A DNA stretch of 64,000 nucleotides from Octopus vulgaris. Taxonomy: Eukaryota. The position numbers and the translations under genes are program-made. Below are positions 18,733 to 58,285 of this stretch, in pieces (position 1 is the first letter of the stretch; each line of letters opens with the position of its first letter). The stretch spans positions 3,534,001 through 3,598,000 of the forward strand of contig OX597826.1 of the NCBI GenBank assembly GCA_951406725.2. Direction: 5' to 3'. The notes under the pieces were generated by a model that was not told the origin of the DNA, made no database searches, and saw only the letters and a list, made by a program, of their open reading frames with translations.

Positions 18733-19400
18733 ACCCCAGGACTTATTCTTTCTATGCCTGGTACTTATTTTATCGGTATATTTTGTACAACGGCTAAGTT
18801 ATGGGGATGTAAACACACAAACATAAGTTGTCAAGCGATGGTGGGGAGACAAACACAGACATACAAATACATGCATATATATATATATATATATATATAT
18901 ATATATATATATATATATATATATATATATATACACATATATATATATATATACATATATATATATACATACACAAACACAGACACACACACACACACAC
19001 ACAAAACACACACACACACATATATATATATATACTTTATTTAAAGCAGCAGAAAATTCAACAAAACCTGTTACTCTGAGTTTCGCGTTGCCGTTCATCG
19101 GAAACTCAGAGTAACAGGTTTTGTAGAATTTTCTGCTGCTTTAAATAAAGCATATTACTCTACCACCGGTATTTGACTACTCTTTTTTTCCACCTTGTTT
19201 CACATTTATGTGTTTACTCCGGCATATATATATATATATATATGTACAACGGGCTTCTTTCGGTTCCCGTCTGTTAAATCCACTCACAAGATTTTGGATA
19301 ACCAGAGGCTATAGTCGAATTCGCTTGCCGAAGGTGCCAAGCAGTGGGGCTGAACCTGGGTACAAGAGATTAGGATGCAAGCTTCTTTCCACACAGCCAC
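18733..19400 (-). mobile_element. SINE family A interrupted by a fold-back element
   Basis: Tail half at 18733-18870 and head half at 19246-19400. Confidence 0.75.
19035..19222. mobile_element. Penelope-pLTR-like fold-back element (50-bp arms) with a hammerhead remnant
   Basis: Arms at 19035-19084 and 19101-19150; same family as 46649-46905, including the downstream tail. Confidence 0.75.
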
Positions 19401-19538
19401 GTCAACCAGAAAGAGAGAAAGTGAGAAAAGAGGTAGAGAGAGAGAGAGCGATAGAAAGATAGATGTATAGATAGATACACAAATAGGTAGCTAGCTGGAG
19501 GTAGATAGGTATATATGTATGTATATATATAAAAAAGA

Positions 19539-19857
19539 CTCCGCCGGTTACGACGACGAGGGTCCCAGCTGATACGATCAACGGAACAGCTTGCTCGTGA
19601 AATTAACGTGCAAATGGCTGAGCATTCCACAGACACGTGTACCCTTAACGTAGTTCTCGGGGATATTCAGCGTGACACAGAGAGTGACAAGGCTGACCCT
19701 TTGAAATACAAGTACAACTCATTTTTGCCAGCTGAGTGGACTGGAGCAACGTGAAATAAAGTGTCTTGCCCAAGGACACAACGCGTCGCCGGGAATCGAA
19801 CTCACAACCTTACGATCATGAGCCGAATGCCCTAACCACTAAGCCACGCGCCCTCAC
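19539..19857 (-). mobile_element. SINE family E (tRNA head plus CORE-like domain), near full length
   Basis: Minus strand: tggcttagtggttaggg...gagttcgattccc...gtccttgggcaagacacttt; second copy at 44831. Confidence 0.9.
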
Positions 19858-20033
19858 TATATATATATATATATATATATATATATATATATATATATAT
19901 GTATGTATATATATGTATGTATATATATATATAGAGAGAGATAGATAGATAAATAGATAGATAGATAGATAGATAGATAGATAGATAGATAGATAGATAG
20001 ATAGATAGATAGATAGATAGATAGATAGATAGA
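19858..20033. repeat. (TA)n and (ATAG)n microsatellites
   Basis: Direct arrays. Confidence 0.95.
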
Positions 20034-20544
20034 TTCGAACGTAACAAAATTGAATACTGTACAGTGTGATACGTACATCTAGTATAGAATTACTAGACAG
20101 ATGGAAATAAAAAAAAAGACTTTTTTTTTCATTTGACAACTGACGATGATAAAATCCTTTATGGAAACAAGAGATTCGTTTGTAGTGAAACAGAAGTTTT
20201 TAGGCTTCTTGGATCAGGATGACACAATCCTGAACAGTAGTGCCCCTATGTATTAATGCATCACTTATATGTCAATAACGTTGAATTTTACATGTTACTC
20301 TGTGACGTCGGAGTCTCTGTGATATGACTTATTCTGAAAGGGAAAATATGTATGGAATAGCCATCTAACAGAAAATCAATTATTGGCTAGAATATATATT
20401 AGCCCACGTAGATATGTGCTTTTGTTATTTTTGTGTAATATCTGAATTTATAAACTTTCGCACGTAAATTCTATAGGGGAGGTTTGGGGATGTGAAATGT
20501 CGCCTTTCAGAAAAATATAAGAGAAACAAGGGATATATATATAC

Positions 20545-20800
20545 ATTATATATATATATATATATATATATATGTGTGTGTGTGTGTGTGTATGTGTACA
20601 TAGAAAAAAAGATAGATAGACTGATAGATACATAGATAGACAGACAGAGAGACAGATAGACAGACAGATAGATAGATAGATAGATAGATAGATAGATAGA
20701 TAGATAGATAGATAGATAGATAGATAGATAGATAGATAGATAGATAGATGGATGGATGGATGGATGGATGGATGGATGGATAGATAGATAGAGAGAGGGG
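20545..20800. repeat. Compound (TA)/(TG)/(GATA)/(GATG) microsatellite
   Basis: Direct arrays. Confidence 0.95.
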
Positions 20801-54640: not shown

Positions 54641-54767
54641 CTCAACAGCAACTAACGTGTTGTCCACGACATTATAAACTTACAGGGTGCAAATACACTA
54701 TTATGTGATTTTTCTTTATGAACGTCATGGAACGAGGCCAAGCGTGGCTTGCCAGGCTGACGACCAA

Positions 54768-55232
54768 AATAATAATAATAATAACAATAATAATAATGAT
54801 AATAATAATAATAATAATATAATAATAATAATTGCCCTAGAAGTCGAGAAGACACTCGGCAAGAAATGGAAGCAAATTTGAAAGAAGAGAAAAAAAAGGT
54901 AATAATAATAATAATAATAATAATAATAATAATGATAATAATGATAATGATAATAGTAATAATAGTAATAATGATATTAATATCATAATAATAATAATTC
55001 TTTCTTTATTGGCCACCAGGGTGAACACAAAACATACAGGACGATACACAGACGAGGGACAGTAAGGATAAACGAGTAAACAGCCAACAAACACAACGAT
55101 TAACAAAGAGCTTAAATCAACCATATATGCTTCCCCAATAAGGGCGAATATAATAATAATAATAATAATAATAATAATAATAATAATAATAATAATAATA
55201 ATAATAAGATGAAGAAGAAGAAGAAGAAAGTA
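54768..55232. repeat. Three (TAA)n tracts enclosing a minus-strand retroelement 3' end (54997-55140)
   Basis: The minus strand ends ...caccctggtggccaataaagaaagaattattatt. Confidence 0.7.
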
Positions 55233-55440
55233 TACTAAAGGCGCAAAGCCTATACATTTTGGAATGGTGGGAGGTCGAATAGTCGGTTACGTAGATGCCA
55301 GAGCTCCAGTGGTACCCATTTTGTCGTTCTCCAAGGCAAAGTCGACCTGGTGGAATTTGAAATGCAGAACGTGACGACGGACGAAATGCCGTTAGGCATT
55401 TTGCCCGCCGGGCCAACGATTATGCCAGCTCACCGTCTTA
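55233..55440 (-). mobile_element. SINE family B2
   Basis: ggcaaagtcgacc.ggtggaatttgaa...gccagctcaccgtctt. Confidence 0.75.
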
Positions 55441-57942
55441 CTACTACTACTACTACTACTACTACTACTACTACTACTGTTGGAGTTGCTTGTGGCATAT
55501 ACAATCACACAGGAATAAACCATACACCCTTCTGTCCTCTTCTCTGCTCTGTATAACTCTCCAGGTGCTTCACTAACTTCTCTATTGAATATTCCTTCTC
55601 CATAGAATTGCCCTCTGTAATTCTCCTCTCCCATAATTTTCCTGCAAACATCGACATAATGATGTTCACACTATCGATCTTTTCAGTTTGCATATATCGA
55701 TCTGCCAATCTCAATGGGCCGACGATGATCAGGAATAAAACCCCATCTCCTGATGAAGCCATATGAAAAAAAAAATAAATAAAAGAATAAGTGAATGAAA
55801 AGACAAAAAGTGAAGTTGAGGTGATTCTAGAGATGCCAAACTCTGTGTTTACACTACAGCATTCCTCTCTAGCCTTGTCATTCGCTCACTTCGCATATCA
55901 CCCTGCAGATGAAAACTTCCCCCCCTCCATAGCTATTTCAAGAATTATAAAACAGAATTCACTACTGCAGGCGCTAATCAACTGCAATAATGATGCCGAT
56001 TATTACAACATAAAACCTGCCTTGCTGTCTTCTAACTGATTAAGTCGACAACGAGAATTTGGTCGTTAGCATATCATTCTCCGTTCGCTTGAACAAATAT
56101 CATATCAGCTCATTACTTGAAAATGATTAACAAATATCGCAATAGGATAATTGGAAAAAGTAAGAAAAACAACAGCATCAATAACAAGATGTAATATATA
56201 AATTGTTTTATTTTTAATGCATGGATTTTGTTTGTTTTTTACCTCTTTATTTGGTTGTATATTTTCGCATGTTTTTTTTTTTTATTATCTGAAAACAAAA
56301 ATATAAATTCATATAATTATTCCTATATTTATTAGATTTGCTTTGTTTTTTCAGTTGAGAATCTGTTTCTCTTCTAGCTTCTATATCGATATTTTTTGGT
56401 TAAATTCTTGCCTGATTTATTTATTTTTTAAAAATTTCTGACGTCATTTATTTTTGAACAACAACAACAACAACATGATTGACTCCTGTTGGTTGTTTAC
56501 TGAGAATTATGTTGCTGAATATTTTCGAAGGGGAAGATGTAAGGTCGATCATATTGGCCACTATCCCTACCCTTGATGTAATATTGTCATCAACATATAT
56601 GACATGACATGGTCCTGTACTTTCACACCAATCGAAAATGCGCTAGAATTGATTATTTCTTACATTTATTTTTAGCTAGGTTTGCAACAGTGGATTTGTT
56701 GCTTTCTTTGTTGCTTTTGGTGCTGAGATCCAGCTTTGCCTTCTGTTCTCATTCATATCACGTAAAGCTTTCCGTACATTTTTCACAAATCCTATTGCTA
56801 ATACTACATTATTCAATCTTGTGATGCGTATGAGGTGTTTCTACGTCTCTCAAGAATATGGTGATTCTTCATGTTAAGTGTGAGTGTGTACTGGACAAGA
56901 TATTATAGAAGAACAGCAATTGCCCAGCGTGCTAATCTCCCTTGACAAAGCTATTGTACTTGTCCAATGGAAAGGCAACACCTGATATTATGATACAGAT
57001 TGGTATTAGTGTTATCTGTGTTGGTCATTGTACTCAGAAAAGAAGAGATGGAACAAGTATCGTAAGTTATAAAATCAAACGTCCTAAAACTCCGCTAAGC
57101 CAAAAATCTCTGCTAATTCTTTTTTTATCGCATCAACAACTTAAAGAATGAAGGTCAAAGTCAATATCATCGGGTTAGAGTTTATTGTGAAAACAGCCGG
57201 AACGAATAACTCCAATAACCCAAAGCAATCATCTCTCGAACACTCCCAGAACCGTATTCAGCAGAACGGGAGCCATCATGTGTATATATATAAATATATA
57301 TGAATATATATATGTATACACACACAGACACACAACACGCAGAGAAACACACACAAAATATATATATATATATATATATATATATATATATATATATATA
57401 TATATCAAAGTTGGACTCCGAGTCCAACTTTGATAGAAATAAGCATTCTTGACTGCTATTTCTATTTTTTCAGTATGCGGTCAAGCAACCTGTTTGCCTG
57501 TCCCTTTTTCTTATATACAATATATATACTGAACTTTACAGAAGTTCCTGCCGGTAATCGGCTATATTTACATACCGAATTCTACCAGTAAATAATTGGG
57601 TTTTTTTTAAAAGCCTTTATAGAAATTATTTACTTACTCTTATTATTATATATATATATATATATATATATATATATATATATATATATATACATATATA
57701 TCTTAATATTTTGCGATGTATCTATATATAATCAAAAGATGAGAGAGATTTAATGAAAGGTAGTTGAGTGGGGTTTCTCACAGGTCGAACGAATACATAC
57801 AGGTAGGTTTCGATTATGCCTGGAACAAATTTGGAGGAAAAATGATAAAATTTAAGTCTGGTTATTTATTCCTTTGCTAAATCCCATTGAATATCTCTAC
57901 AGAAGTATATATATATATATATATATATATATATATATATAT

Positions 57943-58285
57943 AGCGGTTGTATACTGTCAACTTAACGTGACAATCCCATAAAGGGAATCACACCACCGC
58001 TTTTAGCCCTAGGAAGCATCGACGCTTCCTGTCGGCTTTGATACATTTCCTGTGTCCTTATATTTGCGAAGGGGAGACAGGCGTTGATACCCTAGACTGA
58101 TGACGAGCAAGACTCAGAAACATGCATGCCTGGCTGTTGGGGGTGCTTGTCTCCCCTTCGCAAATATAAGGACACAGGAAATGTGTCAAAGCCGATAGGA
58201 AGCATCGATGCTTCCTAGGGCTAAACAGCGGTGGTGTGATTCCCTTTACGGGCCTGTCACGTGAAGTTGACAGTATACAACCGCT
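57943..58285. mobile_element. Fold-back element with ~141-bp inverted arms and a 60-nt loop carrying a degenerate hammerhead motif
   Basis: Arms at 57943-58083 and 58144-58285; loop CTGATGA (58097-103) c-gag-caaga-ctc-a GAAA (58117-20) catgcatg cc; follows a (TA)n tract. Confidence 0.8.

What the first reader, a model, noticed from the sequence alone, without database searches (positions are those of the whole stretch)
19035..58285. Dispersed set of unrelated dimer-type hammerhead ribozyme cassettes, mostly beside (TA)n tracts and in fold-backs
Seen: at least five sequence-unrelated cassette types share the type I hammerhead layout helix I-CUGANGA-helix II-GAAA-helix III-UH-helix I. They lie at 30633, 39881, 40679, 46690/46765 (with a relative at 19070) and 58097. 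In each, helix III is a short palindrome (agtatact, acccagggt, attgcaat, actctgagt, acatgcatg[t]) with a 0-1 nt centre, so it is unlikely to fold stably alone. Known: Penelope-like pLTRs and metazoan retrozymes carry such hammerheads, which cleave as dimers. Inference: this genome hosts a diverse, TA-microsatellite-associated population of Penelope-mobilised ribozyme mini-elements, about one locus per 10 kb here, that standard annotation would miss.
Basis: partly seen in the sequence, partly recalled or inferred. Interest (0 to 1): 0.85.

Follow-up and report, generated by a model that had tools for sequence, protein, structure and literature searches.

The report
Hammerhead tails of Penelope-like retroelements
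The scattered self-cutting-RNA motifs are real but mostly decayed tail ends of a known kind of jumping gene (Penelope-like elements) plus two short ORF-less tandem repeats likely moved by them; the one unusual point is that several families, one of them young and probably still jumping, multiplied with an altered, likely weakened catalytic core.

Summary
The motifs are at the stated places, beat shuffles, and belong to five unrelated multicopy families. Only 40685 is canonical as it stands. 39886 has a damaged helix I, 58097 lost its cleavage site, and 30638 and 46768/46715/19070 come from families whose usual core is non-canonical (CUUGAAGA; CCGANGA, 1119 copies versus 87 CUGA). Three families are not stand-alone mini-elements: longer copies run into Penelope-like (PLE) endonuclease genes (A Neptune-type; B and D Hydra-type, D matching a published coral Hydra hammerhead). 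C and E are ORF-less, circularly permuted units of about 496 and 354 nt, like non-LTR retrozymes; E shows compensatory helix I changes and swaps among palindromic stems III. (TA)n targeting is strong for A, B, D, weaker for C, weak for E. Fold-backs are PLE 5' inversions predicted to mask the ribozyme. All this is published biology. Added here: A's young sister family (identical 4271-bp tandem units, intact ORF) mostly carries a U4C core where runs of three other organisms mostly show U, a natural allele pair for testing whether PLEs need cleavage. No cleavage or RNA evidence. The scan noted PLE hammerheads in other genomes, none on this DNA.

The parts
30608..30855 (+). Family A: 5'-truncated 3' end of a Neptune-type PLE between two (TA)n tracts; hammerhead 30633-30676 with family-wide core CUUGAAGA (30638-30645), stem III palindrome 30663-30670
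39864..39954 (+). Family B: 3' end of a Hydra-type PLE followed by (TA)n; canonical core 39886-39892, stem III 39927-39935, helix I damaged in this copy
40563..40924 (+). Family C: partial copy of an ORF-less unit of about 496 nt (retrozyme-like); the only fully canonical hammerhead in the window, 40679-40740
46741..46905 (+). Family D sense arm: 3' end of a Hydra-type PLE ending at (TA)n; hammerhead 46765-46801 (core CUGACGA, GAAG instead of GAAA; family core is CCGACGA)
46644..46742 (-). Family D inverted 5' arm (fold-back); hammerhead 46682-46719 with UUGACGA core
19035..19222 (.). Second, older family D fold-back; minus arm 19068-19101 holds CCGAUGA core and stem III but no helix I 5' strand
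58078..58340 (+). Family E: partial copy of a 352-355-nt ORF-less, circularly permuted tandem unit (non-LTR retrozyme-like); core 58097-58103, cleavage triplet and helix I 3' strand deleted in this copy
57939..58082 (-). Family E inverted 5' arm, abutting (TA)19 at 57906-57943

Best explanation
These are the 3' terminal (pseudo-LTR) hammerheads of several Penelope-like retroelement families, left mostly as short decayed copies: A, B and D lie downstream of PLE endonuclease-coding sequence in longer genomic copies, while C and E are ORF-less tandem units likely copied by PLE enzymes. Shown: family membership, linkage to ORFs, tandem and inverted layout, (TA)n junctions, palindromic stems III and covariation in E. 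Inferred mechanism: a tandem master is transcribed through two or more terminal repeats; the two palindromic stems III would pair to make an active double hammerhead that cuts out a unit-length RNA; the PLE RT/GIY-YIG protein would nick (TA)n and copy from the 3' end, mostly stopping early or switching template, which leaves single truncated ends and fold-backs. Single copies and fold-backs are predicted to be inactive; selection acts on masters, not on these copies. Masters of A, D and A's young sister family carried altered cores, so cleavage is likely weak or not rate-limiting.
For: A: GIY-YIG ORF (Pfam above cut-off) ends 231-233 nt upstream of the core in 4 of 30 loci (two are near-duplicates, one is the seed); 7 of 8 A-type ORF loci found by protein carry the A hammerhead 240-270 nt downstream; L207 has a 607-aa RT+EN frame with a C-x4-CxxC linker. 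B: EN-like fragments in L095 (CxCx5C) and L109; L109 reads CxxC..E..N..CxH, and L094, L105, L114 share that upstream DNA. D: 8 of 25 walked loci share over 900 nt upstream; 3 of the 7 translated carry the same CxxC/E/N/CxH tail about 1.26 kb upstream; these are the Hydra marks of PMC8557442 section 11, and published Hydra-2_aMil has the same helix I, stem III arms and cleavage-site A. C and E: tandem periods 496 and 352-355 nt, permuted ends, no linked PLE ORF in 98 loci. E covariation: 18 cells changed on both sides versus 9.1+/-2.2, 0 of 500 shuffles; pair 28-76 CG:12 UA:8; stem III ACUAGU 11, ACAUGU 10, ACAUGCAUGU 3, other 4 of 28 parsed among 30 position-ordered copies. Helix I differs compensatorily between A and its sister. 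Stems III do not fold alone but form duplexes of -4.8 to -13.3 kcal/mol; natural E tandems favour pairing between units in 4 of 5 pairs. 3' end at (TA)4+: A 19 of 29, B 18 of 28, C 11 of 29, D 25 of 30, E 4 of 26; background 2.3%.
Against: No cleavage and no RNA data. No full-length B or D element (no RT) was found, and Pfam does not recognise the D fragment, so the Hydra call rests on EN motifs and the hammerhead match. No autonomous partner was tied to C or E; one E locus (L223) has a Hydra-like EN about 800 nt upstream, separated by unrelated DNA. The covariation test does not correct for relatedness, and double changes occur in helix I but not convincingly in helices II and III. One of five E tandem pairs prefers pairing within a unit. 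Tandems are rare (C 2 of 29, E 3 of 26), far from the long arrays of some published retrozymes. Samples of 30 were the best BLAST matches to the window copy (30 of 40 scored, from 127-2407 candidates).
Confidence: 0.82

Rival explanations
1. All five are independent ORF-less ribozyme mini-elements that multiply as such.
For: Most copies are short: the median shared 5' extent is about 30-40 nt upstream of the core in A and B, and many D copies start just upstream of helix I; short forms could have secondary masters. C and E do fit.
Against: A, B and D extend into endonuclease-coding DNA with staggered 5' ends, as 5' truncation predicts; direct tandems in A 0 of 29, B 0 of 28, D 1 of 30.
Confidence: 0.1
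2. In A, D and the young Neptune family the hammerhead is vestigial: it no longer cuts, and the elements move without it, as most Naiads do; the helices persist through recent descent or a non-catalytic role such as RNA dimerisation or RT binding.
For: Family-wide core changes: A 99 of first 100 matches CUUGA, D 1119 CCGA versus 87 CUGA, young Neptune 76 of first 100 CCGA. U4C considerably lowers activity in vitro and insertions near C3 impair cleavage (PMC3088659 passages). Minimal PLE hammerheads cut poorly (PMC4209133); 8 of 9 Xenopus dimers did not cut (bioRxiv 2026.07.22.740005).
Against: The rest of the core, stem III palindromes and helix I are kept, with compensatory change between A and its sister; differences in other organisms fall mainly in loop II and at U4; U4C still supports viroid infectivity. 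Not exclusive of the best explanation's identity claims.
Confidence: 0.3
3. Chance matches in AT-rich, repeat-rich DNA.
For: Three of the seven motifs fail even the relaxed descriptor, which itself yields a chance hit; the 40685 monomer folds no better than shuffles (z -0.6).
Against: Shuffle controls, complete motifs in family majorities, position at PLE 3' ends, match to a published hammerhead, covariation.
Confidence: 0.02

Closest known systems
PLE pseudo-LTR hammerheads of metazoans (Cervera and de la Pena 2014, PMC4209133; parts 1-2 of 4 read, supplements not read)
   Same: Type I layout, palindromic unstable stem III, predicted dimer action, many heterogeneous families per genome, mostly single truncated copies, some opposite-strand pairs 100-700 bp apart.
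   Different: Main text read describes a U3-A8 core variant and a Drosophila variant, not family-wide U4C or CUUGA cores.
Hydra-clade PLEs (Craig et al. 2021, PMC8557442; passages, section 11, supplement part 2 and search hits read)
   Same: CxCx5C linker, CxxC and CxH around E and N, (TA)n targets, 5' inverted copies; Hydra-2_aMil hammerhead has D's helix I, stem III arms and cleavage-site A; an Octopus Hydra family is listed.
   Different: All 34 rows of their hammerhead table begin CUGA (found with a canonical descriptor); D is CCGA with a 3' UTR of about 1.4 kb; six short motifs of the five families were not found in that supplement (line breaks can hide matches).
Neptune-clade PLEs
   Same: RT with C-terminal GIY-YIG and C-x4-CxxC linker, tandem units, (TA)n bias.
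   Different: Core CUUGAAGA (A) or CCGAAGA (young sister); a separate upstream 454-aa stop-to-stop frame overlapping the 775-aa frame. No RT tree was built, so Nematis is not formally excluded.
Non-LTR retrozymes (Cervera and de la Pena 2020, PMC7229834, passages; Li, Clavereau and Pollet 2026, 10.64898/2026.07.22.740005, parts 1-3 of 5)
   Same: ORF-less tandem units with a type I hammerhead; mussel units 350-390 nt (E 354); PLE origin proposed; monomers dispersed.
   Different: Arrays here are short and rare; circular RNA not shown; frequent PLE-style 5' inversions.
U4C and near-C3 insertion hammerhead variants (Perreault et al. 2011, PMC3088659, passages; CYGANGA descriptor in PMC13481778, passages)
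   Same: Same kinds of core change are known in viroid, viral and saltern ribozymes.
   Different: Here they mark whole retroelement families with hundreds to over a thousand copies.

Membership tests
Type I hammerhead (canonical) | Core CUGANGA...GAAA...UH with three helices | tested here: met
   Window copy 40685; family majorities of B, C, E
Type I hammerhead (canonical) | Same core in families A and D | tested here: not met
   A CUUGAAGA, 0 of first 100 of 283 matches lack the extra base; D CCGACGA 1119, CUGACGA 87, CCAACGA 57: filed as core variants
Type I hammerhead (canonical) | Covariation supporting helices | tested here: met
   E helix I (relatedness not corrected); stem III palindrome swaps; A versus sister. 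Not run for B, C, D
Type I hammerhead (canonical) | Self-cleavage, dimer-dependent | not testable with these tools
   Only folding predictions
EN+ PLE, Neptune type (family A) | RT plus C-terminal GIY-YIG with CX2-5CxxC linker upstream of the hammerhead end | tested here: met
   (RVT_1 below its curated cut-off)
EN+ PLE, Neptune type (family A) | RT phylogeny within Neptune | not tested
   No tree built
EN+ PLE, Hydra clade (B, D) | CxCx5C linker and CxxC/CxH flanking E and N | tested here: met
   B: both; D: CxxC/CxH only, linker not recovered; definition
EN+ PLE, Hydra clade (B, D) | RT with RWK and DKT motifs | not tested
   No RT-bearing B or D copy was recovered or searched for by protein
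EN+ PLE, Hydra clade (B, D) | Insertion in (TA)n | tested here: met
   B 18 of 28, D 25 of 30, background 2.3%
Non-LTR retrozyme (C, E) | ORF-less tandem repeat with a hammerhead in each unit | tested here: met
   E dimers and a trimer, period 352-355; C period 496 in L012; no linked ORF in 98 loci. Window copies are single and partial
Non-LTR retrozyme (C, E) | Expressed linear and circular monomer RNA | not testable with these tools
   No run on record as RNA and no raw reads were listed for the stretch searched, which was the Neptune end, not C or E
Naiad PLE | N-terminal endonuclease, no canonical hammerhead | tested here: not met
   EN is C-terminal, directly upstream of the 3' UTR, in A, B, D

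The most novel reading that the evidence does not exclude
PLE lineages in this genome have repeatedly and independently fixed weakened hammerhead cores at position 3-4 (CUUGA in Neptune family A, CCGA in Hydra family D, CCGA arising recently in the young Neptune family and in some C copies), and the CCGA allele overtook the ancestral CUGA allele during the latest burst. Attenuated self-cleavage would then favour transposition, for example by preserving more-than-unit transcripts needed to rebuild tandem masters, and canonical descriptors undercount PLE ribozymes, including in elements said to lack them.
Probability: 0.2. Interest if true: 0.65.

Novelty: new member of a known kind. Interest (0 to 1): 0.36.

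Why it matters
As a set, these are ordinary products of Penelope-like retrotransposition, useful for annotation because Rfam misses them. The part worth following is that the role of PLE hammerheads is stated to be unclear (PMC8557442), and this genome offers a young element with identical intact copies and two natural core alleles (CUGA and CCGA), which makes the question 'does a PLE need efficient self-cleavage?' directly testable.

Tried and rejected
Rfam at gathering score and by E-value: no hammerhead shown. Window ORFs: no PLE protein. Naiad identity: rejected, EN is C-terminal. Fold-backs as dimer partners: rejected, predicted perfect hairpins of -134 and -267 kcal/mol. CUGA as the true D core: rejected, CUGA (87) is close to the opposite-strand CpG change CCAA (57) against 1119 CCGA. 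CpG decay as the source of CUGA in the young Neptune family: rejected, 24 CUGA and 0 CCAA in the first 100, linked to a loop II marker. Simple distance-to-TA count was misleading because A and E hold internal TA runs; replaced by junction test, dropping 8 near-duplicate loci (L010, L070, L096, L111, L122, L126, L134, L135). Autonomous partner for C or E: none in 98 loci with seven PLE protein seeds; the L223 hit judged a neighbour. Expression: no RNA holder listed, contigs only; no evidence either way. Relaxed-scan hit at 26386 judged chance. Three palindromes were cut one base off and redone. Literature searches found no report of these families or of U4C/CUUGA cores in PLEs; subscription papers, Repbase/Dfam and the supplements of PMC4209133, PMC7229834 and the 2026 preprint were not seen and may hold them.
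Full report
Setting. The window lies in G000, a 2.8-Gb animal assembly (C13:3534001-3598000), AT-rich and full of microsatellites. My impression that it is an octopus is recalled from its repeat landscape and was not tested. I label the cassettes A (30633), B (39881), C (40679), D (46690/46765 and 19070) and E (58097).

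Observation. A strict descriptor passes only C (1 versus 0.01; 2 of 200 shuffles). A relaxed descriptor written afterwards passes A, C, both D arms and one AT-run hit (5 versus 0.18; 0 of 60). B, E and the 19070 copy fail both. Rfam gives nothing at gathering score and no hammerhead in the 150 of 214 rows shown.

Families. Each cassette has many genomic copies (127, 2356, 1306, 1838 and 2407 first-look candidates for C, D, A, B, E, 40 scored each, 30 fetched), with no similarity between families. Family majorities show complete hammerheads: canonical in B, C and E; CCGACGA in D; CUUGAAGA in A. So the window's B copy has a mutated helix I and its E copy has lost the cleavage triplet and helix I 3' strand. 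By a family-type intactness test, 21, 11, 7, 21 and 10 of 30 copies of A-E pass.

What carries them. A: a GIY-YIG ORF ends 231-233 nt upstream of the core in 4 of 30 loci. A protein search returned 8 A-type loci, 7 with the A hammerhead downstream, one with a 607-aa RT-EN frame and a C-x4-CxxC linker: Neptune type. B: L095 and L109 hold endonuclease fragments with CxCx5C and CxxC..E..N..CxH, and L094, L105 and L114 share that upstream DNA. D: walking upstream gave 8 of 25 loci sharing over 900 nt; 3 of 7 translated end in the same motif set about 1.26 kb before the core. These are the Hydra-clade marks (PMC8557442 section 11), and the published Hydra-2_aMil hammerhead has D's helix I, stem III arms and cleavage-site A with a CUGA core (supplement part 2). 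Pfam does not recognise the D fragment and no RT was recovered for B or D. C and E: head-to-tail units of 496 and 352-355 nt, copies starting and ending at different points of a circle, no linked PLE ORF in 98 loci except one separated neighbour. That is the non-LTR retrozyme pattern (PMC7229834 passages; preprint 2026.07.22.740005).

Structure. No stem III folds alone, all form duplexes of -4.8 to -13.3 kcal/mol. In five natural E tandem pairs, pairing between units dominates in four. In 28 aligned E sequences 90% of cells pair, with 18 double changes versus 9.1 (0 of 500), mostly helix I; relatedness is not corrected. Among 30 position-ordered E copies, stem III is ACUAGU in 11, ACAUGU in 10, ACAUGCAUGU in 3 and other in 4 (2 unparsed), so the palindrome, not the sequence, is kept.

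Context. 3' ends meet (TA)4+ in A 19 of 29, B 18 of 28, C 11 of 29, D 25 of 30, E 4 of 26, against 2.3% (8 near-duplicates dropped). Upstream inverted partners occur in 2, 6, 11, 20 and 9 of these. They are the known PLE 5' inversions and fold into long hairpins that would mask the ribozyme. Density: six loci in this window; these families plus the young Neptune occur about once per 100 kb in other families' loci, and the relaxed scan gives 10 hits in 346 kb of flanks, about 1 by chance, two of them partners of the focal element.

The odd cores. D: 1119 exact CCGA, 87 CUGA, 57 CCAA, so canonical-looking D copies, including 46768, are largely CpG decay. A: 99 of the first 100 of 283 matches are CUUGA, none lacks the extra base. 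The protein search also exposed A's sister, a young Neptune family with many 775-aa frames and a 100%-identical 4271-bp tandem trimer. Its hammerhead has a compensated helix I and a shorter palindrome relative to A and a CCGAAGA core in 76 of the first 100 of 1546 matches, CUGA in 24, CCAA in none. Contigs of three other organisms mostly read U there (94 of 94, 5159 of 7145 and 20 of 27 depth units), so C is probably derived. Five of 30 C copies also read CCGA (counted). U4C is known to lower activity yet support a viroid, and insertions near C3 impair cleavage (PMC3088659 passages); CYGANGA is already used as a descriptor (PMC13481778 passages). I found no report of such cores in PLEs in eight searches; unread supplements and repeat databases may hold them.

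Mechanism. Shown: identity, layout, junctions, covariation. Inferred: tandem masters give transcripts with two terminal repeats, the palindromes pair into a double hammerhead, a unit RNA is cut out and copied into (TA)n by the PLE protein, usually truncated or inverted. Whether A, D and the CCGA Neptune still cut is open (about 0.3 that they do not).

Comparison and verdict. PMC4209133 (parts 1-2 of 4) already describes thousands of heterogeneous dimer-type PLE hammerheads per animal genome, mostly single truncated ends; 235 hammerhead loci were annotated in giant squid (PMC6962438 passages). The scan's own notes hold 358 findings with 'hammerhead Penelope' in at least 29 genomes, none in this genome or like this sequence. 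New members of known kinds; interest 0.36, carried by the natural CUGA/CCGA allele pair.

Noticed in passing
L211 (G000:C1:27840700-27850690); L206: Young Neptune-type PLE: 4271-bp unit, 100% identical tandem trimer, a 454-aa stop-to-stop frame overlapping a 775-aa RT-EN frame (intron or frameshift not examined), (TA)6 at the unit junction, U4C hammerhead; 1546 matches to its core region.
   Followed up: partly
window 39998-40560: Decayed RT C-terminal fragment (LDYCSQIWSP, LERRRERY) between B and C, resembling a CR1/L2-type LINE 3' end; label recalled, not tested.
   Followed up: no
window 35883-36314 (-): Second decayed LINE-like C-terminal frame (143 aa); label recalled.
   Followed up: no
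L160 flank; also L041, L065, L118, L123, L150: A further hammerhead family (canonical CUGAAGA, 31-nt helix II, stem III ACUCGGAGU, cleavage triplet ending in U), as an inverted pair in L160; absent from the window.
   Followed up: partly
L049, L029, L223 flanks: Fragments of other PLE endonucleases, showing more families in this genome.
   Followed up: no
L145: E array of four units in which two have lost the core and helix II by the same deletion.
   Followed up: no
L056, L131, L023, L078, L230: Pieces of different families nested or adjacent (E inside D's 3' UTR; D beside E, C or A), as expected from shared AT-rich targets.
   Followed up: no
window 33895-34539 and 52286-52888: Inverted pairs of an abundant SINE-like repeat split by (TA)n; no hammerhead match.
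   Followed up: no
window 26386 (-): Relaxed-descriptor hit whose stem III is an AT run; likely chance.
   Followed up: partly
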